From positions 1,690 to 65,689 of the forward strand of contig JASGCW010000009.1 in the NCBI GenBank assembly GCA_030053945.1: a stretch of DNA of 64,000 nucleotides, in the 5' to 3' direction. Shown one piece after another: positions 199 through 12,512 of the stretch. The number at the start of each line of letters is the position of its first letter. Positions within the stretch are counted from its first letter, which is position 1. This stretch comes from Limnohabitans sp. (GTDB lineage Bacteria > Bacteroidota > Bacteroidia > Flavobacteriales > Flavobacteriaceae). The notes beneath the pieces were generated by a model. That model saw only the letters and a list, made by a program, of their open reading frames with translations, made no database searches and had not been told where the DNA came from. Both the position numbers and the translations under genes were made by a program.

Positions 199-232
199 AA
201 AAAAGAGGGTGTCATAAACTTTTTGACACCCT
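199..232 (-). terminator. Intrinsic terminator closing the aromatic catabolism operon
   Basis: AGGGTGTCA (206-214) / TGACACCCT (224-232) 9-bp stem, followed on the minus strand by a T-tract, just downstream of the 245 stop. Confidence 0.7.
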
Positions 233-244
233 TATTTTATAAGT

Positions 245-991
245 TTAATATTTCCCATTCAACAATTCCCCTCCAATTCCTGATTTAGCTTCAATTCCTA
301 ATTTCTTCATCATTTCGTAAGTAGTACAAACGGCCGCAGAAGTTACAGGAATGCCACATTCTGTCTGAATTAAATCGATAGCTTCTAAGGATGGCATTTG
401 TACACAAGCCGAAGCTACTAATACATCTACATCTGTTAAATCTAGTGTTTTATAGATTTCTAATAAATTCAACGGATTTTGAGCCGCTACTTCTAAATTA
501 TCTGGAATTTCAAGCGCTATACTTTCCTTCACTTTGATGCCTTGATGCTCTATGTATTCTACCACTTTATCTGTTAACGGACGCATATATGGTGTGATAA
601 TAGAAATTTGTTTTGCTCCTAAAGTTTTTAATCCGTTGATTAATGCACCCGCAGATGTTACAATAGGAGTAGGGAAGCCATTGGCAATTGTTTCGGCGTG
701 AAGATTTGCTTCAGACACACAATGATATCCTTTACCCATACTCATAATAGCTACTAGACAAGCATAACCCATAACATCTACCTCTGCATCTGAAAGTTCG
801 ATGGCACATTTTAAACTCATAGCATCCATAGCTTCAAGCTCTTCTTTGGTTACTTTTTTCATTCGCATCCTGCTGCTATGAAAGGTAAAACGTTCTGGTA
901 AAATGGTTTCACGCGAACGGAAAATGGCTGGTATTTCGGTTTCCATCGTTACATTGCTCGATGGAACTATTTGTCCTATTTTGAATTTCAT
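245..991 (-). CDS. maiA: Maleate cis-trans isomerase (Asp/Glu racemase superfamily)
   Basis: N-terminal GQIVPSSNVTME motif; two catalytic-type Cys in YACLVA and SACVQMPS; 248 aa. Confidence 0.85.
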   Translation of the reverse strand: MKFKIGQIVPSSNVTMETEIPAIFRSRETILPERFTFHSSRMRMKKVTKEELEAMDAMSLKCAIELSDAEVDVMGYACLVAIMSMGKGYHCVSEANLHAETIANGFPTPIVTSAGALINGLKTLGAKQISIITPYMRPLTDKVVEYIEHQGIKVKESIALEIPDNLEVAAQNPLNLLEIYKTLDLTDVDVLVASACVQMPSLEAIDLIQTECGIPVTSAAVCTTYEMMKKLGIEAKSGIGGELLNGKY

Positions 992-1035
992 TTGTTTAAA
1001 TGTTTAAGGTTTAAAAATTTAAAGTTCTTAACTAA

Positions 1036-1106
1036 ACTGAACACTAAAAACTGTTAACTGAACACTGCTAACTGTGACTGAACACTGCTAACTGTGACTG
1101 AATACT
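1036..1106. repeat. Intergenic tandem repeat (ACTGAACACTGCTAACTGTG x2 plus partial copies)
   Basis: 20-bp unit at 1057-1076 and 1077-1096; ACTGAACACT/ACTGAATACT partial copies at 1036 and 1097. Confidence 0.85.
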
Positions 1107-2013
1107 AAATTTCTTTAACAGTATTAATAATAGTCCCAATTCCTTCTACGGTAGCTTCTACTACATCACCATCATACATCCATTCTTGTGGGTCACGACC
1201 AGCACCAACACCCGCAGGGGTTCCTGTGGCAATGATATCACCAGCTTCTAAAGTGAAAACAGTACTTAAATCTTCAATTAAATCATTGATATTGAAAAGC
1301 ATAAATTTAGTATTAGAATTCTGTTTTTCCACACCATTTACTTTTAACGATAAATTCAAATTATGTGGATTTTCGATTTCGTCTTTGGTTACTAAAATAG
1401 GTCCCATAGGAGCGAAAGTGTCTTGTCCTTTAGAAACAATCCATTGTCCTTCACGGCGACAATCTCTGGCTGAAATATCGTTTATTACCGTATAACCAAA
1501 CACATAATCTAATGCTTCAGATTTAGATACGTATTTCCCTTTTTTTGAGATAATTACAGCCAATTCACATTCCCAATCTAATTGAGATGTTAGCTTGGTA
1601 TTTTTGATAATATCGGTATTAGTCGCTGTAACTGTTGTAGGTGGTTTTGAGAAGATAATTGGCTTTTGAGGAAGTTTACCAGTTGTATCTAAAGTACGTG
1701 CGCTTTCTGCTACGTGCTCTGTATAGTTTAATCCAATTCCTATAATATTTTTTCTTGGTTTAGGAATAGGAGCAAGGAAGGTAACTTCCTCCATTGTATA
1801 TGCAATTTCTTCAAATTGTTTATCGCTGGTTTCTGAAATTAAATCGTTTATTTCGGAAATGACTTCAAATCCCATATCGATTAATTCTAACATAGTTTTA
1901 GGTAACGGAAAATTGGATACATCGCCAAAATCTTCCATATCAATTACTTGGTTGTTGTGTATAAAGCCTAATCGAGGCTCTGAGTTTTCAATAGTGTAGG
2001 TGAGTAGTTTCAT
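1105..2013 (-). CDS. Fumarylacetoacetate hydrolase family protein
   Basis: IIGIGLNYTEH, IFSKP, DWECELAVII, GYTVINDISARD, GDIIATGTPAGVG motifs. Confidence 0.9.
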   Translation of the reverse strand: MKLLTYTIENSEPRLGFIHNNQVIDMEDFGDVSNFPLPKTMLELIDMGFEVISEINDLISETSDKQFEEIAYTMEEVTFLAPIPKPRKNIIGIGLNYTEHVAESARTLDTTGKLPQKPIIFSKPPTTVTATNTDIIKNTKLTSQLDWECELAVIISKKGKYVSKSEALDYVFGYTVINDISARDCRREGQWIVSKGQDTFAPMGPILVTKDEIENPHNLNLSLKVNGVEKQNSNTKFMLFNINDLIEDLSTVFTLEAGDIIATGTPAGVGAGRDPQEWMYDGDVVEATVEGIGTIINTVKEI

Positions 2014-2024
2014 TTAAAATTTTT

Positions 2025-2083
2025 GTTTCAAGTTTAATGTTTCAAGTTCAATTTTACTTAATTGATATTGAAATTTGAAATTG
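2025..2083. repeat. Degenerate heptamer arrays (GTTTCAA... / ...TTGAAAT) in roughly inverted orientation
   Basis: GTTTCAA GTTTAAT GTTTCAA GTTCAAT followed by TTGAAATTTGAAATT. Confidence 0.55.
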
Positions 2084-2086
2084 TTA

Positions 2087-3205
2087 TTATTCTTTAATTA
2101 TTTGATGTCCATTATTTTCTGTATAGTCTCTAGATTGATATAACCCTAATCCTTCAATTACAGGCAAGTCGTTAAAGTTAAATAAGCAGGCATCTTCGGT
2201 TTCTGAAAGGTTATGATGTTCATGAAATGCCCAAGAAGGAACGCAAAAAATATCTCTTTCTTTCCAATCAAAACGTTGTCCATTTATAATAGAATATCCT
2301 TTCCCTTTAGCACATTGATATACAAAAGATCCGGTATGGCGGTGTGCTTTTCCTTTGAATCCAGCAGGTAATAATTGGATTGCCGCCCCCATAGTTTGCA
2401 TAACATGCCCGCCTGTTAACGGATTTGAATATTTCATGAAAATTCCGTCGAATGGATTTAGTTCATTTACCTTTTGCGCTTCTAACAATGCAGGATATAC
2501 TTTAGACCATGAATATTTGAATAGGGGAGAATAGGGTTTTGTCCAAGTAGTCGTATCTGCTGGAATTAATCCAGAGCATCCATAAGTTATTGGACTGTAA
2601 TTTAAAGGAACATCCAAAGGTTGTTTTCCGTCAAAAACAGCATAATCATTAGCCTCTAGTGCATTTACCAATGGTATATCTAAACCATCCTGCCAAATAC
2701 AAGTTTCGCCATCTTCTTCAACGCCATGTTCATGCCAAGTAGAATTAGGAGTAATTACAAAATCATTGACTTCCAACATAATTTTGTTACCATCTACCAC
2801 TGTATATCCTTTTTTGCCTTCCATAATAAAACGTAGGGCAGAAGCACGATGTCTATGAGCAGAGGTGCTTTCACCTGGACGAGTAACTTGTATGCCAGTG
2901 TATAGCCAACCTACTGCTGCGGAAACGTCTTTACGTTTATCATTAACCAAATATACTACACGTCTTCCAGCTTGTTCTGGTGTTACTAATTCAGATGATT
3001 TTAGAACTAAATGTCTTAAATTTTCATATTTCCATAACATAGGAACAGAATTCGATTTAGGTTCCCAAGGTTCAATATCATTAGCTACTGTCCAAAGAGC
3101 TCCAGCGCCTAAAGTTTCTAATTCTTTATAATAGGCTTCTAGTTCAGGTGTGTCTTGAACACGAGCGCGACCTATAACGTCGTCTGAGTATTTTTTTTCT
3201 TCCAT
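2087..3205 (-). CDS. Bicupin ring-cleavage dioxygenase, gentisate 1,2-dioxygenase family
   Basis: AERR-like AGRRVVYLVN, AHRHRASALRF and WHEHG metal motifs in the first cupin; AHRHTGS and FHEHHN in the second. Confidence 0.85.
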   Translation of the reverse strand: MEEKKYSDDVIGRARVQDTPELEAYYKELETLGAGALWTVANDIEPWEPKSNSVPMLWKYENLRHLVLKSSELVTPEQAGRRVVYLVNDKRKDVSAAVGWLYTGIQVTRPGESTSAHRHRASALRFIMEGKKGYTVVDGNKIMLEVNDFVITPNSTWHEHGVEEDGETCIWQDGLDIPLVNALEANDYAVFDGKQPLDVPLNYSPITYGCSGLIPADTTTWTKPYSPLFKYSWSKVYPALLEAQKVNELNPFDGIFMKYSNPLTGGHVMQTMGAAIQLLPAGFKGKAHRHTGSFVYQCAKGKGYSIINGQRFDWKERDIFCVPSWAFHEHHNLSETEDACLFNFNDLPVIEGLGLYQSRDYTENNGHQIIKE

Positions 3206-3220
3206 TGTTTGTTTATTTAT

Positions 3221-3263
3221 TTTTTAAAGTATATTCAAAACTCCAGGAGTTATACTTTAAAAA
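3221..3263. repeat. REP-like palindrome downstream of the RAYT gene
   Basis: TTTTTAAAGTAT / ATACTTTAAAAA outer stem around an AACTCC-A-GGAGTT core. Confidence 0.65.
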
Positions 3264-3269
3264 GGTTCA

Positions 3270-4027
3270 TCATTCTATAATTAGTTCATTAATTTCTGAT
3301 AAATTATGTTCTTGATTATGGAACTCGATAAAATTACTTTTATTTCCGTATATGTCTAAAATTTCTTCTCTTTTAATTTTTGTTTTTTTGTCTGATACAA
3401 CACTTTCATATGTTTAAATTTTATTTTTCAGCGGTAACATATGGTATCCCTTTTTTAATCATTGGTGTTTACCTCACTTAGCATTTATTTTTATAGGTGT
3501 TCAGTGAATATATTTGCATACGCAAACTACTTGTTTATGGGGATTTCATATGATGACCAAGGATATAAACTCATTTTATCTGTAAATCCGTGTTGAACAG
3601 GGTTGTTGTGGATATAATAAATGAGATTTTTAAGATAGCGTTCTGATATCACTTTTTTTCTTTCAAAAGGAACTTCAAAAAGACTTCCAGTTCGTTTGAA
3701 TTTTTTATTTATCGCTTGTGTGTAAGCGTTAAAAAGATATCCAAATTGTCTTGAAGGTTCAATAACATTTGCCTTTTCTACTGTTGAATATTCTAATTTA
3801 TCTATTTCAATTTCATAGGGTAATTTTAGATAGACTAAAATATGAAAATGATTTTTCAGTAAACACCAAGCATAAGTTTCAGCAATAGGAGAAAAATACT
3901 TATCATAAAGTCTTAAAAAATGGAAATAACTTTCACTATCAAAAAAAACATCTATTTTATTATTACCTCTATTATAAATGTGGTAATAATTTCCAGTTTC
4001 TAATGGTAATGGTTTATAGGATTTCAT
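3270..4027 (-). pseudogene. REP-associated tyrosine transposase (RAYT, Y1/HUH), disrupted by a 140-bp insertion
   Basis: YYHIYNRGNN, HUH motif NHFHILV, YIHNNPVQHG and YPWSS. Removing 3411-3550 joins ...PWSS in frame to YESVVSDKKTKIKREEILDIYGNKSNFIEFHNQ...IE* (3410-3270), giving a 205-aa protein. Confidence 0.85.
3411..3550. mobile_element. 140-bp non-autonomous inserted element, copy 1
   Basis: Flanked by TTTCATA(TG) direct repeats at 3404-3412 and 3544-3552; interrupts the RAYT frame; homologous copy at 27763-27856. Confidence 0.8.
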
Positions 4028-4048
4028 TTTTTTAATTTCTATTTATTC

Positions 4049-4085
4049 TTTTAGTATTAAACTCCATTGGAATTTAATACTAAAA
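4049..4085. repeat. REP-like palindrome upstream of the RAYT gene
   Basis: TTTAGTATTAAACTCC-ATT-GGAATTTAATACTAAA, a 16-bp stem with one mismatch; shares the AACTCC..GGA core with 3221-3263. Confidence 0.7.
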
Positions 4086-4104
4086 ATGTAATTAAATGTA
4101 AAGA

Positions 4105-5073
4105 TTACTCATTTGTATGATCTACAAACGTAATTTTTCGAGTGGGTGCCACATTCACTCTTAAATCAAAAATATCAAATCGGTTATAATGCCCTAAAAT
4201 ATCGTGCATTTGCTTTGGCTGAATGCATTTTTGTAAATCTATTTCAGCATAAATAATTCCTTCATCATCAATTAGAGGTTCTCCTATTACAGCACCATTA
4301 GGACCTAAAAATCCTGAAAAAGCCGAACTTTTTCTAGCAAATAATTCTTCAATTTGTGGCGCTTCTGGTTTTAAAAATTCCATAATTTCTTTTGAAATTG
4401 TTGAGCAAGAAACTATGGTAAATAATTTGCCTTCAAAAGAATGAGCCGCAGCACGGATTTTAATTGCTTCCGCCATATTATAATCTGGTGGTGCAACAGG
4501 AAGTGAGATGTAATTAGCAATATGAACTAATTCACCCTGTGAAAGTAATGTGAATCTTGCCAATGTATTTGTGTTTTCTCCACAAGCTAACGTTCCGATA
4601 GGGCCAACTTCTGTGTCATAAACCTTTAAAGAAGAACCATCACCGCTAGTCCACGTAAGTTTTTCGGCCCAAGTGGGTACTAATTTTCTATGTCTTCCAA
4701 TTAGTTGGCCTTTGTTATCTATAATTAAATTGGTGTTATAAATTTCGCCATAGCTTTTACCTCGCTCGTTAATTCCAATAACAATATGCATATCAAAATC
4801 TTTAGCAGCTTGATATAGTTTTTGCATTGCTAAATCATCTGTTGCCACCGAATTTTTATACAATTCCTCGTACCATTTACTTCCTTGAACAGGTGTCATT
4901 ACCCAATTCCAGTAAGGATAACCTGCAATAAATACCTCAGGAAAAGCAATGAGTTTAGCTCCGTTTTGAGATGCTTCTTTTATAAAAGATATGGCTTTGT
5001 CGATTGTTTTTTCAACATCTAAAAAAACAGGCGAAGTTTGTACTGTAGCGGCTTTGAATTTTTTAAATTCCAT
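4105..5073 (-). CDS. Nitrilase-family carbon-nitrogen hydrolase
   Basis: Catalytic triad contexts FPEVFIAGYP (E), HRKLVPT (K) and TLACGEN (C); C-terminal DILGHYNRFDIF. Confidence 0.9.
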   Translation of the reverse strand: MEFKKFKAATVQTSPVFLDVEKTIDKAISFIKEASQNGAKLIAFPEVFIAGYPYWNWVMTPVQGSKWYEELYKNSVATDDLAMQKLYQAAKDFDMHIVIGINERGKSYGEIYNTNLIIDNKGQLIGRHRKLVPTWAEKLTWTSGDGSSLKVYDTEVGPIGTLACGENTNTLARFTLLSQGELVHIANYISLPVAPPDYNMAEAIKIRAAAHSFEGKLFTIVSCSTISKEIMEFLKPEAPQIEELFARKSSAFSGFLGPNGAVIGEPLIDDEGIIYAEIDLQKCIQPKQMHDILGHYNRFDIFDLRVNVAPTRKITFVDHTNE

Positions 5074-5085
5074 TTTAAATATATT

Positions 5086-6171
5086 TTAATTAGAAACCTT
5101 ACGCATTAAAGTTTCTAATGGTCCGTTTTTAAATTTCTTGTCCCAAATTACGCTAAAAATAACACTAATTACAAAAAAAGCGATTGCATAGGCGAGAATA
5201 TAAATAGTTCCTACTGGTTTTCCAGTAGGAATGTTTCCTTTAGTAAATCGTTTATTGAATATAAATTGAAAAATTAAAACGCCAATAGTAAGATGAATTA
5301 CATAGTGTGTCAACGTCATTTGTCCTGTTTTTTGTAGAGATTGAATGATTTTATTATGGGCAAAAATTTCACCTATATATATGCAAATCACAATTACGAT
5401 TAGTGCAAAACCTATCGTTACTAAAATGAATGGTAGATAAGGTGGGAAATATTCGGCTAAAATATAATCTTTCAAAAAAGGAGGGAAGTTATCATTTTTT
5501 GCAAAGTATCTCAATAATTGAATAGAACCAAAAAGCGCAACACCTGTAAGAAAGATGTTTTGTTTAATTTTTTTGAGATTCCAGTCGAGTTTACCTAACC
5601 ACATTCCTATAACAAAATAAGTAAACCACGGGAATATTGAATTCCATCCATTATACAAGGAATTTCTTAGAAAACCTTTTATTGACCAGAAATCTGTATA
5701 ATCAAAGGTGTTGAAATTCCAACCTGTTTCGATTGGAATAAAGTTAAGTAGGATATTGTGCGCTACTAATGTTACTATCGCTATTGACAAATAAAATCTT
5801 GATGGAATAAATAATATAAATGCTGCAATATGCATATATCCACCATAGAAATGCAAAATATCACCTTGCCACCAATTATAAAGTAAGAGCCCCAAGCCAA
5901 ACAAAAACCAAGAGCGTTTAAGCACTTTTGATTTTAATTTAGATTGTTCTTCTTTAGTTAAATTAGGTTTGTTTGACATCAAAGAAACGCCCATTCCCGC
6001 ACAAATAATGAAAATGGCAGTCGAATTACCAGTAAATAAGCTCATAAACCACCCTACAGAATCAGTAGGAGCAAACATAATTGAACCAAAACTGAAATTG
6101 AAGTTTACAATAAACATTCCTAAAATAGCATAGGCACGAGCTAGATCAAAACCTGTAATTCTTTGATTCAT
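5086..6171 (-). CDS. DUF418-type multi-pass membrane protein
   Basis: RITGFDLARAYAILGM, GDILHFYG, GQMTLTHY and GPLETLMR motifs; many hydrophobic helices. Confidence 0.7.
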   Translation of the reverse strand: MNQRITGFDLARAYAILGMFIVNFNFSFGSIMFAPTDSVGWFMSLFTGNSTAIFIICAGMGVSLMSNKPNLTKEEQSKLKSKVLKRSWFLFGLGLLLYNWWQGDILHFYGGYMHIAAFILFIPSRFYLSIAIVTLVAHNILLNFIPIETGWNFNTFDYTDFWSIKGFLRNSLYNGWNSIFPWFTYFVIGMWLGKLDWNLKKIKQNIFLTGVALFGSIQLLRYFAKNDNFPPFLKDYILAEYFPPYLPFILVTIGFALIVIVICIYIGEIFAHNKIIQSLQKTGQMTLTHYVIHLTIGVLIFQFIFNKRFTKGNIPTGKPVGTIYILAYAIAFFVISVIFSVIWDKKFKNGPLETLMRKVSN

Positions 6172-6596
6172 TAAGATTTAAGTAAAAAATAACTGATTTT
6201 TTCTCTCATTGCATCAGTAAATGCTTCAGAGGTTATTGTTTTTCTATCCTCTGCAATTTTTACATTGACTAATGTTACTTCGCCTTCAAGGACAACTTCG
6301 TTTTGTTGGTTTTTGAAAATAAAGCCACATAATAGGGAAGAGGTGCGAAGCTCTTTTACATACAGTTCCTTTACGATTGTTTCTCCTAATCGAGCTGCTT
6401 TTTTGAATTGTACTTTCAAATCGACCGTAGGCATTCCATTTGTCTCGTGCATTTTTGAAAACGGACGATGTAAAGCTTCTTCAAACCAGTCTTCAACCAA
6501 GTCGTTTAGCATTTCCAAAAATCTTGGGTAAAACACAATTCCAGCATAATCTATATGCTTAAATTTTATTTTTTGTTCTTTTATAAAGTATTTCAT
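6171..6596 (-). CDS. Acyl-CoA thioesterase (4-HBA-CoA/hotdog family)
   Basis: IKFKHIDYAGIVFYPRF motif; 141 aa. Confidence 0.85.
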   Translation of the reverse strand: MKYFIKEQKIKFKHIDYAGIVFYPRFLEMLNDLVEDWFEEALHRPFSKMHETNGMPTVDLKVQFKKAARLGETIVKELYVKELRTSSLLCGFIFKNQQNEVVLEGEVTLVNVKIAEDRKTITSEAFTDAMREKISYFLLKS

Positions 6597-6680
6597 ATTT
6601 TCAAATTCAATTTGTCATAGATTACATTCTACTAATCTATTATTACTTTTCACTATTTTCTTTTCACTTATCACTCTCAA

Positions 6681-8270
6681 CTATTTCAATTTAAAACGCT
6701 GAATTTTACCCGTTTCTGTTTTGGGTAGTGAATTCACGAAATTTATCACTCTTGGGTATTTATATGGTGCGGCTACTTCTTTGAACCACTGCTGAATAGA
6801 TTTAATCATTTCGTTAGTTTCTTTAGAAGAATCTTTCAACACTACGTAAGCACAAACTAACATTCCACGTTCTTCGTCAGGAACACCAACCACAGCACAT
6901 TCTAATATATCATTGTGAGTCAGGAGTACACTTTCTACTTCTATTGCGGCAATATTATACCCTGAGGAAATAATCATATCATCACCACGAGCTACAAAAT
7001 AAAAATAGCCTTCTTCATCTTGTCTAAAAACATCACCAGTAATATTCCATCCGTACTGAACATATTCCTTTTGCTTATCTTCTCGACCTAAATATTTGCA
7101 ACCCGTAATTCCTCTAACGGCCAATCTTCCAGCTTCATTACGAGGCAATTCATTTCCGTTACTATCAATAATTTTTGCTTCATAGCCTGTTATGGCAACG
7201 CCAGTACTACCAGGCTTCATATTTTCCACATTAGATGAAATGAAAATATGTAACATTTCAGTGGCACCTATACCATCTATTATTTTTAATCCTGTTGTAT
7301 CATACCATTCTTGCCAAATTTTCAAGGGTAGTGTTTCACCAGCAGATACACATTTGCGAAGACTTGAAAGGTTAAATTCTGATACTTTTTGAGTTAAAAC
7401 CCGCCAAGCTGTTGGCGCTGTAAAACATATAGTAATTTTATGTTCTTCGATTGCTTGAAGAAGCAAATCCGGTGAAGGTTTTTCAATTAGAAACGTTGAA
7501 GCTCCGTAATACATTGGAAATAAAACCAATCCACCTAAACCAAATGTAAATCCTAAAGGTGGACTTCCTGTAAAAATATCATCAGCTTTTGGTTGAAGGG
7601 AATACTGAGGAAAAGCTTCGCAAATGTTTAAAACATCTCGATGATAATGTGCTGTCATTTTAGGTAAACCCGTTGTGCCAGAAGTAAACCCAATTAATGC
7701 TACACTATCAGCTTTTGTATGATAATTTTGAAATGTTTTAGACTTAGATTGCATTAAAGTTTCTAGTTCAGAATTTCGATAGAAACAAGTTCTTTTCAGA
7801 AAATCTGAATGTACTAAATTCATTTCTTCACTAAGATCATTATCACAAAGTGCTATTGAAATTTCGGCGCAATCAATTATTGTTGTTAGCTCTTTTGAAC
7901 GCAATAATGGCATAGTTGCTATAACAATTCCACCAGCTTTAAGAATCGCAAACCAACACGCGACCATCATAGGGTTATTGGCACTGCGTAACAAAACTCT
8001 ATTTCCAGATTGTAATCCTAAATTATCCACTAAAACGTGAGCAATTTGATTTGCTTTTTCATACAAATCTTGATAGGTCCAAGTTTCCGTAAAGGTGCGA
8101 ATACAAATACTATTTCCCCGACCTTCTTTTATATGATTATCTAGCAAACGTTCAACACAATTAAGCATTTCTAGTTTGTTAAATTGTGGCAAATCCAAAA
8201 AAGCATACTCGGGATGTAAGTTTGTGCTTGGTAAATTATCCTGAGCGAAAGTATCTTTAAAATGTTTCAT
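6681..8270 (-). CDS. Aromatic acid-CoA ligase (2-aminobenzoate/benzoate-CoA ligase type)
   Basis: FTSGTTGLPK, SAGETLP, IDGIGATEMLHIF, TGD and LPKTETGKIQRF adenylation motifs. Confidence 0.85.
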   Translation of the reverse strand: MKHFKDTFAQDNLPSTNLHPEYAFLDLPQFNKLEMLNCVERLLDNHIKEGRGNSICIRTFTETWTYQDLYEKANQIAHVLVDNLGLQSGNRVLLRSANNPMMVACWFAILKAGGIVIATMPLLRSKELTTIIDCAEISIALCDNDLSEEMNLVHSDFLKRTCFYRNSELETLMQSKSKTFQNYHTKADSVALIGFTSGTTGLPKMTAHYHRDVLNICEAFPQYSLQPKADDIFTGSPPLGFTFGLGGLVLFPMYYGASTFLIEKPSPDLLLQAIEEHKITICFTAPTAWRVLTQKVSEFNLSSLRKCVSAGETLPLKIWQEWYDTTGLKIIDGIGATEMLHIFISSNVENMKPGSTGVAITGYEAKIIDSNGNELPRNEAGRLAVRGITGCKYLGREDKQKEYVQYGWNITGDVFRQDEEGYFYFVARGDDMIISSGYNIAAIEVESVLLTHNDILECAVVGVPDEERGMLVCAYVVLKDSSKETNEMIKSIQQWFKEVAAPYKYPRVINFVNSLPKTETGKIQRFKLK

Positions 8271-8275
8271 CTTTT

Positions 8276-9175
8276 TTAGTTTAAAAAACTTTCAATTTCT
8301 TTAAAATATAATTCTTTAGCATCCAGCCAACCATAATGTGCACAATTATCTATTGTAACTAATTTTGAGTTTGGAAATGCTTTAGCAATTTCTTCAGCTG
8401 TTTCAACTGAAATGATATCGTTTTTGCCTTGTAACACTAAAACGGGTTGCTTAAAATTTGAAAAAGAGTTGCTACAGTCAAATTTTATTTTTTGAAGGTT
8501 TTGAATAACTAACGAATTAGTTTTTCTATTCAATTGCGTTAATCTCTCCGCAATGATTGGTGCTTTTGATTTATCAAAAACATAAGCATTAGCTAAAACT
8601 GCAGCTCTCTTTTTAGAAGTTTCTTCAGAAATATCTCCAGATTCTATTTTTTCTTGATAATAATTCAAAGAATCTTGCTGCTCCTTAGTTAAGTTATTAT
8701 TCAATCGTGTGCCTAAATAATCTAAAAATTTCAGATTGATACCTCCTGATGATGAAAAAATGAGTTTTTCTATTGTGTTGGGATGTTTACTAGCATAGTA
8801 AGCTTCCATAATTCCCCCAAAAGAATGTCCTAAAATTGTCCATTTTTTTATTTTAAGATGTTTTCTTAGATTTTCTATATCTTTTACCATCAAATCCATA
8901 GTGATATTATTTTCATCTAATGAAGTAATTACTGATTGTCCAGTACCACGCTGGTCATAAATAATAGTCTTGTAATTTAATTTTGCAAGCTCTTTAGCAA
9001 TAAAAACAAAACCTTCACAATTCATACCTGGTCCACCATTTATTATTAAAATAGGCTTTCCTTTGCCAAAAGTTTTATAATGAAGTTTTACATTTTCATT
9101 TGAAATAGTATTTTCTGTTTGTGAATAACAAAAAAACTGACTAAATAATCCTAATAATGCCAATATATTTTTCAT
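8276..9175 (-). CDS. Secreted alpha/beta hydrolase (proline iminopeptidase-like)
   Basis: Signal peptide-like N-terminus; NGGPG, YDQRGTG, GHSFGG nucleophile motif, C-terminal CAHYGW. Confidence 0.75.
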   Translation of the reverse strand: MKNILALLGLFSQFFCYSQTENTISNENVKLHYKTFGKGKPILIINGGPGMNCEGFVFIAKELAKLNYKTIIYDQRGTGQSVITSLDENNITMDLMVKDIENLRKHLKIKKWTILGHSFGGIMEAYYASKHPNTIEKLIFSSSGGINLKFLDYLGTRLNNNLTKEQQDSLNYYQEKIESGDISEETSKKRAAVLANAYVFDKSKAPIIAERLTQLNRKTNSLVIQNLQKIKFDCSNSFSNFKQPVLVLQGKNDIISVETAEEIAKAFPNSKLVTIDNCAHYGWLDAKELYFKEIESFLN

Positions 9176-11590
9176 TTATAGTTTGTTACTTTTCGGTTTT
9201 AATGCTTTTTTCATACCCTCTAACTGTTTTCTTTCTGAAGCTTTTAAAGGATATAAATGGCTATTGCCCATTTTGTATTGATTAGGTATAAATTGGTCTG
9301 TATATTGTTCATAAGCTTGAGCATTACGAACAAAATTAGCGTCGGCCAAAAGCGGTCTTCCTAGAGCTACTAAATCAGCACGTCCATTTAAAATGGTAGT
9401 GTTAATTTGGTCAATATCTTGGATATAACCCGCAGTAATAGTAGGAATTTGTACCGTATTACGAACCAAATCAGAAAAAGGAGTTTGCCACATTCTTCCT
9501 GTTTGAGGTTTTTGATTAGAAACCGTATTTCCAGTAGAAACATTAATAATATCTGCTCCTGCCTTTTTGAAAGTTTCTGCAATTATAATAACATCTTCTT
9601 CAGAAATTCCGTTTTCTGCCCAATCAGATGCTGATATTCTTACCGACATAGGTTTGTCAGTTGGAAAGGCATTTCGCATTTCGGTAAAAACTCGTAGAGG
9701 GAATTTTAGTCGATTTTCAATACTTCCACCAAATTCATCCCTACGAATATTAGTCAGAGGTGAAAGGAAAGAAGCTAATAGAAATCCGTGATGTGCTTGT
9801 AATTCTACTAAATCAAATCCAGCCTTATCTGCATTTAGTGTTGCTTGGACAAACTGCGAAGTGACCAAATCCATATCTTCAAGAGTCATTTCTTTAGGTG
9901 TAATAGAACTATCATTAAATGGAATAGCTGAAGCGGATAGCAATTCCCAAGGTTGACCAGTAAAAGTGTCTTGCCAAGGAATTTTTGAACAGCCTTTTCT
10001 TCCAGAGTGTCCTAATTGAATTCCTATTTTAGTGGAGGTATTATGATGGATAAAATCGGTTATTTTTTTCCATTCAAGTAATTGATTTTCATTATATATA
10101 CCCGCACAAGCTAAAGTGATTCTTCCATTTTCTGCAACTGCAGTCATTTCAGTCAAAATTAGTCCTACACCTCCTGTCGCTCGGCTACCATAATGGACTA
10201 AATGCCAATGGTTAACCAAACCATCTTTCGCTGAATATTGCCCCATTGGAGCCATTACAATTCGGTTAGAGAGTTCTAGATTGCGTAACTTGAAAGGGGT
10301 AAAGGCAGCGCTTTTGCCTTCGAGAGCCTCAGGCAACGCTTCGAGAGCCTCAGGCAACGCTTCGAGAGCCTCAGGCAACGCTTCGAGAACCTCAGGCAAC
10401 GCTTCGAGAACCTCAGGCAAAGCGTTTTTGTTGTCTGAGGCACTCGAAGACAACAAAGAAGACGACAAAAACTCTTTTAAAACCTTATCTGTAAATGATT
10501 TATCTCGTAAACGAAGGTTTTCATAAGTCACTTTTTTAGAGCGAGTCATACAGCCAAATGCAAATTGGTAAAAAGAATGCTGAATGTGTCGATCCATATT
10601 TTCAAACCAATCTAATGAAACAGTCGCTGCATACTGAATCATTTCTACTGGATTTCTTCGTGTTTGTTCATATTGTTCAAAGGCTGCTTGAATATCATTA
10701 GGATTTGCAATTACCGCATCTGATAGTCCTATAGCACAATCCATTGCCAGCTTTGTCCCCGAACCAATAGAGTAGTGGGCAGTAGCTTTTGCATCACCCA
10801 GCAATACCATATTATTGTGATACCAATTCTTATTAGTCACGTGTGGAAATTGTCTCCAATGTGATTTGTTAGAAATCAAAGGATGACCATCTAGTTCATC
10901 TTTAAAAATTTCCTGAATTTTAGTAATTGTATCTTCCTCGTTGGTTACTTCAAAACCAATATTTTCCCAAGTTTCATCACTACATTCAAATATCCAAGTA
11001 CTCATACCAGGTTCATATTGGTAGGAATGGGCTACAATAGTTCCGTGTGGAGTAGTTCTAAAAAAATAGGTAAAAGCATCCAGAGGTTTTGTAGAACCCA
11101 ACCATACAAACCGATTCTTTTTTAAAGTAATTTGAGTACCAAATTCTTTTTCAAATTTAGTTCGTGTTAAACTTCCTATTCCGTCAGCTACAAGAATAAT
11201 ATCTGAATCTTGCAATGGTGCCAAATCAGTAATTTCAGACTCAAAATGTAGATTAATTCCTTCTTCTTGACAACGTTGATGCAATAATTTTAATAAAGTC
11301 TTCCTTGAACAGCCACAAAAACCATTTCCAGAAGCACTTACTTGCTGTCCGTCACGAGCGACAATAATATCATCCCAATACGCAAAATTAGAGCGAATCA
11401 ATTCATAAGATTGCATATCACGTTTCAGGAATTCGCCTAAAGTTTCATCTGAAAACACAACCCCAAATCCGAAACTATCGTCGGGTTTGTTTCGTTCATA
11501 TATATCTATTTGACAATTTGGAATTGCTTTTTTTGTAAGTATTGAAAAGTAAAGTCCGCCTGGACCGCCACCTATAACAGTTATTTTCAT
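9176..11590 (-). CDS. Bifunctional salicylyl-CoA 5-hydroxylase / 2-aminobenzoyl-CoA monooxygenase-reductase type (FAD monooxygenase plus OYE-like domain)
   Basis: GGGPGGLY, FGFGVVFSD, GDAKATAHYSIGSGTKLAM in the N-domain; NRIVMAPMGQYSA, HHGFLLASFLSPLTN in the C-domain. Confidence 0.85.
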   Translation of the reverse strand: MKITVIGGGPGGLYFSILTKKAIPNCQIDIYERNKPDDSFGFGVVFSDETLGEFLKRDMQSYELIRSNFAYWDDIIVARDGQQVSASGNGFCGCSRKTLLKLLHQRCQEEGINLHFESEITDLAPLQDSDIILVADGIGSLTRTKFEKEFGTQITLKKNRFVWLGSTKPLDAFTYFFRTTPHGTIVAHSYQYEPGMSTWIFECSDETWENIGFEVTNEEDTITKIQEIFKDELDGHPLISNKSHWRQFPHVTNKNWYHNNMVLLGDAKATAHYSIGSGTKLAMDCAIGLSDAVIANPNDIQAAFEQYEQTRRNPVEMIQYAATVSLDWFENMDRHIQHSFYQFAFGCMTRSKKVTYENLRLRDKSFTDKVLKEFLSSSLLSSSASDNKNALPEVLEALPEVLEALPEALEALPEALEALPEALEGKSAAFTPFKLRNLELSNRIVMAPMGQYSAKDGLVNHWHLVHYGSRATGGVGLILTEMTAVAENGRITLACAGIYNENQLLEWKKITDFIHHNTSTKIGIQLGHSGRKGCSKIPWQDTFTGQPWELLSASAIPFNDSSITPKEMTLEDMDLVTSQFVQATLNADKAGFDLVELQAHHGFLLASFLSPLTNIRRDEFGGSIENRLKFPLRVFTEMRNAFPTDKPMSVRISASDWAENGISEEDVIIIAETFKKAGADIINVSTGNTVSNQKPQTGRMWQTPFSDLVRNTVQIPTITAGYIQDIDQINTTILNGRADLVALGRPLLADANFVRNAQAYEQYTDQFIPNQYKMGNSHLYPLKASERKQLEGMKKALKPKSNKL
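10318..10457. repeat. In-frame 21-bp tandem repeat x5 plus one inverted copy (REP-like doublet) inside the CDS
   Basis: CTTCGAGA(G/A)CCTCAGGCAACG at 10318, 10339, 10360, 10381 and 10402 (the last ends AAG); inverted copy TTGTCTGAGGCACTCGAAG at 10431-10449. Encodes ALPE(V/A)LE repeats. Confidence 0.95.
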
Positions 11591-11803
11591 AATTATGTTT
11601 TCTTAAAATCAAAAGCACCTAAAATGATGCTGTTTGCTAAATATGTTTTTAAATAAACTTAAAATATTTTCTCTTCGAAAAATTTCAGAAAATCATTTCA
11701 AGTTTTACTAAGCAAGAAATTTTGTCTGAGAAATTATTTATACTTCAAAATACTTAATTAGTAGTTTTTAAATTTTATATTAATTGCCAATTCACACTGC
11801 TTT

Positions 11804-12415
11804 TTAACCTCTTTTAATCGAAAATATTTCTCCTAACTTTGCATAATTAGAACCTGCTAAACGAGCAACAGGTTTATAATTCATTAGGTCTATTTTGTGA
11901 TCGTCAAGGAGTATTGTATCATCAAAATGCATCATTACAATTTTTCCAATAATCACACAAGCTCCACCATTTTTGTGACCTTCAAGAAAATAATGATGAA
12001 CCATTTCACATTCAAAATGAACCTTACTTTCTTTAACTCTTGGAGCATTAACTTTTATAGAATCAATAGGAGTTAATCCAGCCAACTCAAATTCACTTTC
12101 ATTAGATGGTATAGCTTGAGAAGTTGTATTCATCTTTTCCACTAAATCTTCTGTAACTAAATTTACAACAAATTGTTTTGAAGCTAATATATTGTTTAGT
12201 GTATCTTTATTTTTGTTACCTGTTCTTACAGTAGAAAACATTATATGTGGGGGATCTTCACCTACGGCATTAAAATAAGAAAAAGGAGCAAGGTTGTTTA
12301 TTCCATTTTCATCTACCGTAGAAATCCAACCTATAGGTCTTGGAATAATAGCACCTGTTAGTAATTTATATATTGCTTTGTCATCTATTATAGTAGGATC
12401 AAATTGCATTTTCAA
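11804..12415 (-). CDS. Flavin reductase-like family protein
   Basis: IPRPIGWISTV, NLAPFSYFN, KDTLNNI, PVARLAGSNY motifs. Confidence 0.85.
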   Translation of the reverse strand: MKMQFDPTIIDDKAIYKLLTGAIIPRPIGWISTVDENGINNLAPFSYFNAVGEDPPHIMFSTVRTGNKNKDTLNNILASKQFVVNLVTEDLVEKMNTTSQAIPSNESEFELAGLTPIDSIKVNAPRVKESKVHFECEMVHHYFLEGHKNGGACVIIGKIVMMHFDDTILLDDHKIDLMNYKPVARLAGSNYAKLGEIFSIKRG

Positions 12416-12512
12416 GTTGTTTGTTTATTTACAAATAAAAAGAAAAAAAACTAGAATTAAAAACCAATCTTTAGTCAACTTATTTATAATTTTAGCAAAA
12501 AATTTACAAACT

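What the first reader, a model, noticed from the sequence alone, without database searches (positions are those of the whole stretch)
245..12415. CoA-dependent aromatic ring catabolism cluster ending in maleate, possibly an undescribed anthranilate route
Seen: co-oriented genes for an aromatic CoA ligase, a salicylyl-CoA/2-aminobenzoyl-CoA hydroxylase type enzyme, a thioesterase, a gentisate-type dioxygenase, an FAH hydrolase, a nitrilase-family enzyme and a maleate isomerase. No maleylpyruvate isomerase or beta-oxidation genes are in the window. Established: Streptomyces Sdg enzymes convert salicylate to gentisate via CoA esters, whereas Azoarcus ACMR dearomatises 2-aminobenzoyl-CoA for beta-oxidation. 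Inference: the ring-cleavage product is hydrolysed directly to pyruvate plus a cis C4 acid, which the isomerase turns into fumarate. The substrate could be salicylate, or anthranilate via 5-hydroxyanthranilate.
Basis: partly seen in the sequence, partly recalled or inferred. Interest (0 to 1): 0.7.

Follow-up and report, generated by a model that had tools for sequence, protein, structure and literature searches.

The report
Anthranilate ring-cleavage operon with a nitrilase
This Flavobacterium operon most likely breaks down anthranilate, a product of tryptophan and indole, by a route I found in no paper: the ring is hydroxylated on a CoA ester, opened with the nitrogen still attached, and a nitrilase-type enzyme then frees ammonia to give maleate and fumarate.

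Summary

Eight of them form a fixed core, in the same order in 60 of 60 complete Flavobacterium loci:
- flavin reductase-like protein
- two-domain aryl-CoA 5-hydroxylase (ACMR/SdgC type)
- aryl-CoA ligase
- thioesterase
- branch-1 nitrilase
- gentisate-dioxygenase-like bicupin
- FAH hydrolase
- maleate isomerase

The nitrilase-cupin-FAH-isomerase module also occurs in Alpha- and Betaproteobacteria and in an actinomycete. In some of these it lies beside isatin hydrolase and iad-type oxidoreductase genes.

Several results favour anthranilate over salicylate:
- The ligase is 50% identical to ligases of beta-oxidation-type anthranilate clusters that carry tryptophan dioxygenase and kynureninase.
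- A nitrilase stays linked to the cupin and FAH in two separate lineages.
- The hydroxylase's reductase domain has Gln in place of the first catalytic His in every ring-cleavage-linked copy checked.

No beta-oxidation genes flank the cluster, and the genome has no maiA-type isomerase.

Nothing was tested biochemically. The Ruegeria cupin, about 60% identical, is published as a gentisate dioxygenase, so the salicylate route stays open. The searchable library holds no description of this pathway. The scan has already reported the same operon on other genomes.

The parts
199..231 (-). Terminator-like hairpin just after the last gene. On the minus strand it reads GGGTGTCA, a 9-nt loop, TGACACCC, then TCTTTTTT.
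   Evidence: Read directly from the sequence. The scan missed it because the loop exceeds 8 nt.
245..991 (-). Maleate cis-trans isomerase (248 aa); the last enzyme, converting maleate to fumarate.
   Evidence: 306.6 bits, aligned end to end with P. putida S16 maleate isomerase 4FQ7. Both catalytic Cys motifs are kept (GYACLVA, SACVQMP). It is 87-94% identical across the Flavobacterium loci.
1105..2013 (-). FAH-family acylpyruvate-type hydrolase (302 aa). Inferred to split the ring-cleavage product into pyruvate and a cis C4 acid derivative.
   Evidence: PF01557, 233 bits. Best solved relative is 8SKY at 225 bits; maleylpyruvate hydrolase 6JVV scores only 93 bits. It follows the cupin directly in 9 of the 11 cupin-bearing loci of other phyla mapped; in the Ruegeria and Embleya loci the cupin sits between nitrilase and FAH in the same way.
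2087..3205 (-). Gentisate-1,2-dioxygenase-like bicupin (372 aa); the ring-cleaving dioxygenase. Both cupin halves keep an HRH...HxH set.
   Evidence: TIGR02272 scores 299.7, below its 442.1 cut-off. NF049978 (5-aminosalicylate dioxygenase) scores 261, below 650. It scores 521 bits to 3BU7, the Ruegeria pomeroyi GDOsp. It is a single copy in the genome.
3527..4027 (-). Accessory ORF (166 aa), REP-associated tyrosine-transposase-like, with HFH and YYIHNNP motifs.
   Evidence: NF047646 scores 44.7, below its cut-off of 80. There is no Pfam or PHROG hit. It is single-copy in the genome and occupies the same position in 4 of the 80 loci.
4105..5073 (-). Branch-1 nitrilase-family enzyme (322 aa). 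Inferred to release NH3 from the nitrogen-bearing C4 or C7 product, giving maleate.
   Evidence: PF00795, 141.8 bits. TIGR04048 scores 223.8, below 502.6. The best solved relatives are nitrilases and cyanide dihydratases. E46, K130, C164 and E166 are invariant. It is a core member in 60 of 60 complete loci.
5086..6171 (-). Accessory DUF418/HGSNAT-type membrane protein (361 aa).
   Evidence: Pfam. No counterpart was found in any of the 80 related loci.
6171..6596 (-). 4HBT-fold acyl-CoA thioesterase (141 aa). Inferred to free 5-hydroxyanthranilate from its CoA ester.
   Evidence: PF13279 and PF03061. It is a core member. A thioesterase also accompanies the module in Proteobacteria.
6681..8270 (-). 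Aryl-CoA ligase (529 aa); inferred anthranilate-CoA ligase.
   Evidence: TIGR02262 scores 325, below 375. It is 50% identical over 99% of its length to the ligases of abm-type clusters in Ruegeria and Paracoccus.
8276..9175 (-). Accessory alpha/beta hydrolase (299 aa, proline-iminopeptidase family); role unknown.
   Evidence: It is present in 5 of the 80 related loci.
9176..11590 (-). Two-domain FAD monooxygenase plus OYE-type FMN protein (804 aa) of the ACMR/SdgC type; the aryl-CoA 5-hydroxylase. The OYE motif reads ELQAHHGF.
   Evidence: NF006101 scores 956.8, below 1078. PF00724 scores 227 bits.
10318..10420 (-). In-frame tandem repeat of 21 nt, 4.9 copies, encoding heptads ALPE(A/V)LE in the linker between the two hydroxylase domains. 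It accounts for the extra ~39 residues.
11804..12415 (-). Flavin reductase-like split-barrel protein (203 aa); first gene of the operon and a core member. Its role is inferred only, for example keeping the easily oxidised p-aminophenol intermediate reduced.
   Evidence: PF01613, 87.5 bits. 3BPK scores 154 bits and 2-nitrobenzoate nitroreductase 4Z85 scores 101 bits. A homologue lies beside the cupin-FAH genes in Ralstonia, Aminobacter, Tistrella, Novosphingobium and Sulfitobacter alexandrii.

Best explanation
This is an operon for aerobic catabolism of anthranilate (2-aminobenzoate). All steps below are inferred.

1. The ligase makes 2-aminobenzoyl-CoA.
2. The FAD domain of the two-domain enzyme hydroxylates C5. 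Because the OYE-type reductase site is altered, the product re-aromatises to 5-hydroxyanthraniloyl-CoA instead of being reduced as in the Azoarcus route.
3. The thioesterase releases 5-hydroxyanthranilate.
4. The gentisate-dioxygenase-like bicupin opens the ring between C1 and C2. The amino nitrogen therefore ends up on the new acyl carbon, as a carboxamide or, by elimination, a nitrile.
5. The FAH hydrolase cuts the 2,4-diketo acid into pyruvate and maleamate or (Z)-3-cyanoacrylate.
6. The nitrilase-family enzyme releases ammonia to give maleate.
7. Maleate isomerase gives fumarate.

The flavin reductase-like protein probably protects the auto-oxidisable aminophenol intermediate or the iron centre.

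What is shown: gene identities, synteny, catalytic motifs and associations between genes. What is inferred: every substrate and product.
For: - The eight core genes keep the same order in 60 of 60 complete Flavobacterium loci. The nitrilase ortholog is in 70 of 150 sampled genomes of the genus.
- The nitrilase-cupin-FAH-isomerase module recurs at 45-67% identity in Ruegeria, Sagittula, Shinella, Caballeronia, Ralstonia and Embleya.
- In Aminobacter, Tistrella and Novosphingobium the cupin-FAH pair is joined by a second branch-1 nitrilase lineage that is only about 30% identical. A nitrilase-type function was therefore recruited or kept twice.
- The catalytic residues E, K, C and E are intact.
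- The maleate isomerase is close to the enzyme of the nicotine pathway, where maleate comes from maleamate.
- The ligase is 50% identical and the hydroxylase 44-46% identical to their counterparts in abm-type clusters. Those clusters carry tryptophan 2,3-dioxygenase and/or kynureninase in Ruegeria, Sagittula, Ensifer and Aminobacter.
- In Caballeronia and Shinella the module sits beside a homologue of solved isatin hydrolase (5NMP, 461 bits in Caballeronia). In Caballeronia, Ralstonia, Shinella, Sagittula and Ruegeria it sits beside IOR-like alpha/beta genes of the kind called iadAB in the locus that degrades auxin via isatin to anthranilate.
- OYE motif: 6 of 6 abm-type enzymes read ELH-x-A-HGY. 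All ring-cleavage-linked enzymes checked read EL/VQ-A-(G/H)-HG-(Y/F/N). These are 62 of 62 Flavobacterium copies, Caballeronia, Ralstonia, C. taiwanensis and Novosphingobium.
- There are no beta-oxidation genes beside the cluster and no maiA in the genome.
- The genome can make anthranilate: it has kynureninase and TDO.
Against: - No enzyme or growth data exist for this operon.
- The Ruegeria cupin 3BU7, about 60% identical, is published as a gentisate 1,2-dioxygenase and is listed among characterised GDOs.
- The iron ligands and the Arg, Gln and His residues that I recall as contacting substrate in salicylate dioxygenase (a recollection, not checked against a paper or structure here) are unchanged in the alignments. 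The sequence therefore does not tell a 2-amino from a 2-hydroxy substrate.
- The hydroxylase is equally distant from proteobacterial abm-type and cupin-linked enzymes (44-46%), so its own phylogeny does not assign a substrate. I could not obtain a true SdgC for comparison.
- The Gln/His signature rests on about three independent lineages against two.
- The alpha-proteobacterial versions have no hydroxylase next to the module.
- Sulfitobacter alexandrii has a RidA and no nitrilase beside cupin-FAH.
- In Flavobacterium no kynurenine genes or regulator are linked to the operon. The genome's kynureninase may serve NAD synthesis, because HAAO is also present.
- GDO-type cleavage of a 2-aminobenzoate has no precedent that I know of.
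Confidence: 0.55

Rival explanations
1. Salicylate route of the Sdg type. Salicylate is converted to salicylyl-CoA, gentisyl-CoA and then gentisate. Gentisate 1,2-dioxygenase gives maleylpyruvate. Direct hydrolysis gives maleate and pyruvate, and the isomerase gives fumarate. The nitrilase would be a passenger or would serve an unrelated side reaction.
For: - The best NCBIfam names are salicylyl-CoA 5-hydroxylase and gentisate 1,2-dioxygenase.
- The Ruegeria homologue of the cupin is published as a gentisate dioxygenase.
- The active-site residues of GDO/SDO are conserved.
- No maleylpyruvate isomerase was found, which fits a hydrolase route.
Against: - All NCBIfam scores are below the curated cut-offs.
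- RefSeq gives the same 'salicylyl-CoA hydroxylase' name to enzymes in clusters that carry kynureninase and TDO, so the name is not diagnostic.
- The route leaves the nitrilase unexplained, although it is fixed in 60 of 60 loci and linked in other phyla in two lineages.
- Isatin hydrolase and iad-type genes flank the proteobacterial versions.
- The ligase is closest to abm-type ligases.
Confidence: 0.2
2. Anthranilate with deamination before ring cleavage, as Cain reported for Nocardia opaca. The 5-hydroxyanthraniloyl-CoA, its imine tautomer or free 5-hydroxyanthranilate is hydrolytically deaminated to gentisyl-CoA or gentisate. This could occur in the altered OYE domain or through the nitrilase-family protein. 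A normal gentisate cleavage and the maleylpyruvate hydrolase route follow.
For: - The 5-hydroxyanthranilate to gentisate route is in the literature.
- The cupin family cleaves gentisate.
- The altered OYE site could have a new function.
Against: - To my knowledge, nitrilase-superfamily enzymes do not deaminate aryl amines.
- The protein is a branch-1 nitrilase with the full catalytic set.
- If the hydroxylase itself deaminated the substrate, the conserved nitrilase would again have no role.
Confidence: 0.12
3. The true substrate is another ortho-amino or ortho-hydroxy aromatic acid. Candidates are a 5-hydroxyindole-derived acid, a substituted aminobenzoate or an N-acyl anthranilate. Anthranilate would be only a relative of the real substrate.
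For: - The alpha-proteobacterial loci lack a hydroxylase next to the module. In Ruegeria they add an omega-aminotransferase and a phenylacetaldehyde-dehydrogenase-like enzyme.
- Aminobacter adds a glutamine-synthetase-like gene typical of arylamine pathways.
- This window carries an extra alpha/beta hydrolase.
Against: - In Flavobacterium the ligase, hydroxylase and thioesterase are fixed and the accessory genes vary.
- The ligase is related to abm-type ligases.
Confidence: 0.1

Closest known systems
Azoarcus evansii Abm pathway (2-aminobenzoate-CoA ligase plus 2-aminobenzoyl-CoA monooxygenase/reductase, then beta-oxidation-like steps) and the abm-type clusters of Ruegeria, Paracoccus, Sagittula, Ensifer and Aminobacter
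   Same: - A ligase of the same family, 50% identical.
- The same two-domain FAD/OYE hydroxylase, 44-46% identical.
- Activation of the substrate as a CoA ester, and a thioesterase in the cluster.
   Different: - There is no SDR, enoyl-CoA hydratase, acyl-CoA dehydrogenase, hydroxyacyl-CoA dehydrogenase, thiolase or RidA.
- In their place are a ring-cleaving bicupin, an FAH hydrolase, a nitrilase and a maleate isomerase.
- The OYE motif has Gln for the first His and Phe for Tyr.
- The ring is predicted to stay aromatic until a dioxygenase cleaves it.
CoA-dependent salicylate to gentisate pathway (Streptomyces sp. WA46 sdgABCD; recalled from memory, sequences not available here)
   Same: - A CoA ligase.
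- An aryl-CoA 5-hydroxylase of the same family name.
- Release of the free 2,5-substituted benzoate.
- A GDO-type cupin.
   Different: - NCBIfam scores are below the cut-offs.
- A nitrilase, a maleate isomerase and a flavin reductase-like gene are added.
- The genomic associations point to an amino substrate.
Isomerase-independent gentisate pathway (maleylpyruvate hydrolase HbzF of Pseudomonas alcaligenes NCIMB 9867; solved maleylpyruvate hydrolase 6JVV)
   Same: An FAH-family enzyme hydrolyses the ring-cleavage product directly to pyruvate and a cis C4 acid. No maleylpyruvate isomerase is involved.
   Different: - The window's FAH is only distantly related to 6JVV (93 bits) and closer to other FAH proteins (225 bits).
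- Maleate is isomerised to fumarate. From memory, P. alcaligenes hydrates it to D-malate instead.
- A nitrilase is present.
Lower nicotinate/nicotine pathway (2,5-dihydroxypyridine to N-formylmaleamate, maleamate, maleate and fumarate; NicX, NicD, NicF, NicE; P. putida S16 Iso)
   Same: - It ends with maleate cis-trans isomerase, and the window's enzyme is a close homologue of Iso.
- Nitrogen leaves as ammonia from a maleic acid derivative.
   Different: - The ring is a benzoate, not a pyridine.
- There are no NicX, NicD or NicF-type (isochorismatase-fold) genes.
- The C-N hydrolysis is assigned to a branch-1 nitrilase homologue instead.
iad auxin-degradation locus (Variovorax, Bradyrhizobium; IAA to isatin, isatinate and anthranilate)
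   Same: The proteobacterial versions of the module sit with iadAB-like IOR alpha/beta genes and MarR regulators, and in Caballeronia, Shinella and Sagittula also with an isatin-hydrolase/cyclase gene.
   Different: - This window has none of those genes and uses an ATP-dependent ligase.
- The papers on iad stop at anthranilate and give the IOR-like genes no role.

Membership tests
Abm-type 2-aminobenzoyl-CoA pathway | Benzoate-CoA-ligase-family 2-aminobenzoate-CoA ligase | tested here: met
   The ligase is 50% identical over 99% of its length to the ligases of abm-type clusters in Ruegeria and Paracoccus. TIGR02262 scores 325 against a cut-off of 375. It was not compared with the Azoarcus protein itself.
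Abm-type 2-aminobenzoyl-CoA pathway | Two-domain FAD monooxygenase plus OYE reductase with the canonical H-x-x-H-G-Y site | tested here: not met
   Both domains are present. The motif is ELQAHHGF here, against ELHAAHGY in 5 and ELHVAHGY in 1 of the 6 abm-type enzymes.
Abm-type 2-aminobenzoyl-CoA pathway | Linked beta-oxidation-like genes (SDR, enoyl-CoA hydratase, acyl-CoA dehydrogenase, hydroxyacyl-CoA dehydrogenase) | tested here: not met
   None lie in the operon or to its left. Elsewhere in the genome there are only distant housekeeping homologues.
Sdg-type salicylyl-CoA pathway | Salicylyl-CoA 5-hydroxylase equivalog | tested here: inconclusive
   NF006101 scores 956.8, below its cut-off of 1078. 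RefSeq gives the same name to enzymes in kynureninase/TDO-linked clusters. No true SdgC sequence was at hand.
Gentisate 1,2-dioxygenase (TIGR02272) | Score above the curated equivalog cut-off | tested here: not met
   The score is 299.7 against a cut-off of 442.1. The cupins next to a nitrilase are 56-65% identical to the window's (apart from a truncated second Leisingera copy), while canonical gtdA-type enzymes are at most 40% identical.
Gentisate 1,2-dioxygenase (TIGR02272) | Three-His iron site and the Arg/Gln/His substrate residues of GDO and SDO | tested here: met
   The motifs HRH...R-F and H-E-H and the Gln are conserved in the alignments to 3BU7, 2D40 and 2PHD-type chains. The C-terminal cupin also keeps a His set, as it does in 3BU7. 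Which residues contact substrate is my recollection, not checked here.
Isomerase-independent gentisate route (maleylpyruvate hydrolase) | FAH-family hydrolase related to characterised maleylpyruvate hydrolases | tested here: inconclusive
   6JVV scores 93 bits. Other FAH proteins score up to 225 bits.
Maleate cis-trans isomerase (Asp/Glu racemase superfamily) | Close homology to characterised enzymes and both catalytic cysteines | tested here: met
   4FQ7 scores 306.6 bits and 2XEC scores 196 bits. Both Cys positions are conserved; 4FQ5 is the Cys-to-Ala mutant at the second position.
Branch-1 nitrilase (Nit6803 family, TIGR04048) | Catalytic Glu-Lys-Cys plus the second Glu | tested here: met
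   E46, K130, C164 and E166 are invariant in alignment A1. The best solved relatives are nitrilases and cyanide dihydratases.
Branch-1 nitrilase (Nit6803 family, TIGR04048) | Score above the equivalog cut-off; activity on nitriles | tested here: not met
   The score is 223.8 against a cut-off of 502.6. Activity cannot be tested with these tools.
Nicotinate lower pathway (NicX, NicD, NicF, NicE) | Isochorismatase-fold maleamate amidase and 2,5-dihydroxypyridine dioxygenase | tested here: not met
   No such domains occur in any operon protein. Only the NicE/Iso-type isomerase is shared.

The most novel reading that the evidence does not exclude
The bicupin cleaves 5-hydroxyanthranilate and expels the ring nitrogen carbon as a nitrile, giving 6-cyano-2,4-dioxohex-5-enoate and water, rather than as an amide. 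After FAH cleavage the nitrilase would hydrolyse (Z)-3-cyanoacrylate to maleate. This would be a nitrile-forming aromatic ring cleavage, and it would give a bacterial branch-1 nitrilase a physiological role in central catabolism.

The reading fits the fact that two separate lineages of true nitrilase homologues, and no amidase family, are linked to the cupin-FAH pair.
Probability: 0.25. Interest if true: 0.85.

Novelty: new variant of a known kind. Interest (0 to 1): 0.65.

Why it matters
Anthranilate is the common product of tryptophan, indole, auxin and quinolone breakdown. The routes I know of from the literature go through catechol, 3-hydroxyanthranilate, gentisate (never defined genetically) or the CoA/beta-oxidation route.

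If this operon works as proposed, several things follow:
- It would be a further aerobic route, present in about half of the sampled genomes of this genus and in several other phyla.
- It would give a physiological substrate to a discrete nitrilase subfamily.
- It would reassign the natural role of a crystallised 'gentisate dioxygenase' (3BU7).
- It would supply the missing downstream part of iad-type auxin and isatin degradation in Proteobacteria.
- If the ring-cleavage product is a nitrile, the reaction itself would be new.

Tried and rejected
- Kynurenine genes as a discriminator. The genome has kynureninase, TDO and also HAAO, so these may serve NAD synthesis. None lies within 10 kb of the operon in any of the 80 Flavobacterium loci. 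I dropped this line.
- The C-G-E-N motif in place of the textbook C-W-E next to the catalytic Cys looked special. It occurs in 74 of 125 scorable nearest representatives, so it is not diagnostic.
- Hydroxylase identities do not separate cupin-linked from abm-type enzymes. Only the OYE motif does.
- The search for an Sdg-type comparator failed. The Streptomyces plasmid hit was an ordinary 3-hydroxybenzoate/gentisate cluster, and the tblastn of the hydroxylase against plasmids returned only abm-type clusters.
- The GDOsp paper (PMC2492823) is not held, so I could not read its kinetics.
- The sigma-70 promoter scan is uninformative for Bacteroidota.
- The window's alpha/beta hydrolase is unrelated to the one in the Tistrella locus.
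- I did not annotate the rest of the 64-kb window beyond about 22 kb.

Full report
**Observation**

The region 245-12415 holds eleven co-oriented minus-strand ORFs with short gaps between them. Pfam, NCBIfam and PDB searches identify them in order of transcription:
- Flavin reductase-like split-barrel protein, 11804-12415.
- An 804-aa FAD monooxygenase fused to an OYE-type FMN domain, 9176-11590. NF006101 scores 957 bits, below its cut-off of 1078.
- Alpha/beta hydrolase, 8276-9175.
- Benzoate-CoA-ligase-family ligase, 6681-8270.
- 4HBT thioesterase, 6171-6596.
- DUF418 membrane protein, 5086-6171.
- Branch-1 nitrilase homologue, 4105-5073.
- A 166-aa RAYT-like ORF, 3527-4027.
- Gentisate-dioxygenase-like bicupin, 2087-3205.
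- FAH-family hydrolase, 1105-2013.
- Maleate cis-trans isomerase, 245-991.

A hairpin followed by a T-run comes after the last gene on the minus strand (231 to 199, read). The gene upstream is a divergent housekeeping acetate-CoA ligase. The window starts 1.7 kb from a contig end. The only gene to its left is a T9SS-tail protein.

**Core and accessory genes**

A scan of one genome per species returned 390 relatives of the cupin. The best 80 loci were all Flavobacterium-type. I mapped the window's proteins onto them.
- In 60 of 60 loci long enough to judge, eight genes occur in the same order: flavin reductase-like, hydroxylase, ligase, thioesterase, nitrilase, cupin, FAH and isomerase.
- The alpha/beta hydrolase is in 5 of the 80 related loci, the RAYT-like ORF in 4, and the DUF418 gene in none.
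- Other loci carry unrelated inserts, such as a Glu_synthase-domain FMN protein, an aspartyl-protease-like protein and a permease.
- The nitrilase ortholog is present in 70 of 150 sampled genomes of the genus.
- The lower-pathway genes are the most conserved: isomerase 87-94%, cupin 87-92% and nitrilase 81-90% identical.

**The module outside Bacteroidota**

I ran tblastn against plasmids and chromids and read the annotated regions.
- The module nitrilase-cupin-FAH-Asp/Glu racemase occurs at 45-67% identity in Ruegeria pomeroyi, Sagittula, Shinella, Caballeronia, Ralstonia and the actinomycete Embleya. tblastn also finds the nitrilase and cupin next to each other in Sulfitobacter THAF37 and Leisingera; I did not inspect those loci further.
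- The Ruegeria cupin is the crystallised 'GDOsp', 3BU7.
- Cupins of this clade are 56-65% identical to the window's, while canonical gtdA-type enzymes are at most 40% identical.
- In Caballeronia and Ralstonia the gene set matches the Flavobacterium one, including thioesterase and hydroxylase and, in Ralstonia, the flavin reductase. The difference is that an indolepyruvate-ferredoxin-oxidoreductase-like alpha/beta pair replaces the ligase.
- In Aminobacter, Tistrella and Novosphingobium the cupin-FAH pair comes with a different nitrilase. It is about 30% identical to the window's, still has TIGR04048 as its best hit, and always sits next to a flavin reductase-like gene.
- Two nitrilase lineages linked to the same dioxygenase-hydrolase pair argue that a nitrilase-type reaction belongs to the pathway.
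- The catalytic Glu, Lys, Cys and Glu are invariant in both lineages.

**Which substrate?**

Four independent observations point to an amino rather than a hydroxy substituent.

1. The ligase is 50% identical over its full length to the ligases of clusters built like the Azoarcus Abm pathway: hydroxylase, SDR, enoyl-CoA hydratase, acyl-CoA dehydrogenase and RidA. In Ruegeria, Sagittula, Ensifer and Aminobacter those clusters carry tryptophan 2,3-dioxygenase and/or kynureninase. RefSeq names the hydroxylases of those clusters 'salicylyl-CoA 5-hydroxylase' as well, so that name says nothing about the substrate.

2. Next to the module in Caballeronia lies a protein that scores 461 bits to solved isatin hydrolase 5NMP. 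Shinella has a 55% identical copy adjacent. The IOR-like alpha/beta pair, the MarR regulators and the cyclase gene are the kinds of genes called iadA, iadB, iadR and iadI in the locus that degrades auxin through isatin and isatinate to anthranilate. I compared these by annotation and by the isatin hydrolase match, not by alignment to Variovorax proteins.

3. The nitrilase needs a C-N bond to hydrolyse.

4. The maleate isomerase is a close homologue of the nicotine-pathway enzyme, whose maleate comes from maleamate.

**A sequence signature in the hydroxylase**

I aligned the OYE domain with solved ene-reductases and with both kinds of cluster.
- The six abm-type enzymes keep the canonical EL-H-x-A-H-G-Y site.
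- Every enzyme that sits with a ring-cleaving cupin has Gln in place of the first His, and the Tyr proton donor varies: 62 of 62 Flavobacterium copies read LQxHHGF, Caballeronia and C. taiwanensis read QAGHGY, Ralstonia reads QAGHGF and Novosphingobium reads QAGHGN.
- This fits a hydroxylase that no longer reduces the hydroxylated intermediate, so an aromatic 5-hydroxy product is passed to the thioesterase and the dioxygenase.
- The contrast rests on roughly three lineages against two. Loss of activity is inferred, not shown.

**Proposed mechanism (all steps inferred)**

1. Anthranilate is converted to 2-aminobenzoyl-CoA.
2. It is hydroxylated to 5-hydroxyanthraniloyl-CoA.
3. The thioesterase frees 5-hydroxyanthranilate.
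4. The cupin cleaves C1-C2, leaving nitrogen on the former C2 as a carboxamide or, after elimination, a nitrile.
5. The FAH splits the 2,4-diketo acid into pyruvate and maleamate or (Z)-3-cyanoacrylate.
6. The nitrilase homologue gives maleate and ammonia.
7. The isomerase gives fumarate.

Supporting points and open questions:
- The genome (100% complete) has no maiA-type isomerase, and the cupin is a single copy.
- No abm-type beta-oxidation module, IOR or isatin hydrolase ortholog was found in the genome.
- The flavin reductase-like protein resembles NTA-monooxygenase component B (154 bits) and 2-nitrobenzoate nitroreductase (101 bits). Its role is open. Keeping the easily oxidised p-aminophenol reduced is a guess.

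**Evidence against, and rivals**

- The Ruegeria cupin is published as a gentisate 1,2-dioxygenase and is listed among characterised GDOs. I could not read the original paper.
- The iron ligands and the Arg, Gln and His that I recall as substrate contacts are unchanged. Gentisate cannot be excluded as the substrate, either from salicylate (Sdg-like rival) or after early deamination of 5-hydroxyanthranilate (the Nocardia opaca scheme).
- Both rivals leave the conserved nitrilase without a role.
- The alpha-proteobacterial versions lack an adjacent hydroxylase. One Sulfitobacter locus has RidA and no nitrilase. The module may therefore serve more than one aminohydroxybenzoate.
- The Flavobacterium operon has no linked regulator and no genes that would supply anthranilate.

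**Novelty**

Full-text searches found no paper that combines nitrilase, maleate isomerase and gentisate, and none that combines 2-aminobenzoyl-CoA and nitrilase. The reviews and genome papers I retrieved list only the catechol, gentisate (Nocardia), 3-hydroxyanthranilate and CoA/beta-oxidation routes.

The scan's own notebook shows that the same operon was already reported on at least four other genomes, with the same reading, and that the IOR/isatin variant was reported once. Those are AI notes and I did not count them as evidence. My nitrile/amide idea was written down before I read them. I rechecked the isatin hydrolase link and the cross-phylum link myself. What I tested beyond those note summaries:
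- the OYE Gln/His signature
- the two-lineage nitrilase argument
- the 50% identity between the ligase and abm-type ligases
- the core-versus-accessory breakdown for this window

**Verdict**

This is a real, conserved catabolic operon. It is most probably an undescribed anthranilate route that retains nitrogen through ring cleavage (confidence about 0.55). It is a new variant built from known enzyme families. If the ring-cleavage product proves to be a nitrile, the reaction would be new.

Noticed in passing
window 10318-10420: An in-frame tandem repeat of 21 nt, 4.9 copies, 98% matching, encodes heptads ALPE(A/V)LE in the linker between the FAD and OYE domains of the hydroxylase. It adds about 39 residues that the seven homologues aligned with it lack, and Flavobacterium relatives are 757-797 aa long. 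It also raises local GC content.
   Followed up: partly
window 3527-4027: A single-copy RAYT/IS200-like ORF (HFH and YYIHNNP motifs) sits between the nitrilase and the cupin. Homologues 70-79% identical occupy the same position in 4 of the 80 Flavobacterium loci (L010, L045, L061, L072).
   Followed up: partly
window 5086-6171 and 8276-9175: A DUF418 membrane protein (in none of the 80 related loci) and a proline-iminopeptidase-family alpha/beta hydrolase (in 5 of the 80) are inserted in the operon. Their roles are unknown.
   Followed up: partly
L003:6632-8212 and 15 other Flavobacterium loci: A protein of about 530 aa with a Glu_synthase FMN domain lies between the ligase and the thioesterase in 16 of 60 complete loci. 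This window lacks it.
   Followed up: no
L083, L106, L107 (Ruegeria, Sagittula, Shinella): The alpha-proteobacterial versions are arranged as [two MarR, thioesterase, IOR beta, IOR alpha] divergent from [nitrilase, cupin, FAH, isomerase], with no hydroxylase adjacent. Ruegeria adds an omega-aminotransferase and a phenylacetaldehyde-dehydrogenase-like gene. How the 5-hydroxy group arises there is unexplained.
   Followed up: partly
L089, L095, L096 (Aminobacter, Novosphingobium, Tistrella): A second branch-1 nitrilase lineage, about 30% identical to the window's, always lies directly beside a flavin reductase-like gene near the cupin-FAH pair. Aminobacter also has a glutamine-synthetase-like gene and an acyl-CoA-dehydrogenase-like gene, as seen in arylamine pathways.
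   Followed up: partly
L097 (Sulfitobacter alexandrii plasmid): Here the arrangement is cupin, FAH and flavin reductase with RidA and a thioesterase, but no nitrilase and no isomerase. This may be a variant in which nitrogen leaves as an enamine or imine.
   Followed up: no
L081: This contig is labelled as a Variovorax paradoxus MAG but carries the Flavobacterium-type operon at 88% cupin identity. It is probably mis-binned.
   Followed up: no
literature, PMC12852158: A 2026 paper on IAA degradation by Variovorax boronicumulans reports a hydroxyanthranilate (m/z 152) and assigns it as the 3-hydroxy isomer, by retention time against that single standard plus an LC-MS pattern. As far as the retrieved passages show, a 5-hydroxy isomer was not considered.
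   Followed up: no
window 12294-14420: A divergent acetate-CoA ligase (TIGR02188, 944 bits). The listed TTG start overlaps the flavin reductase gene. The first ~79 residues of the ORF have no match, so the true start is probably downstream.
   Followed up: no
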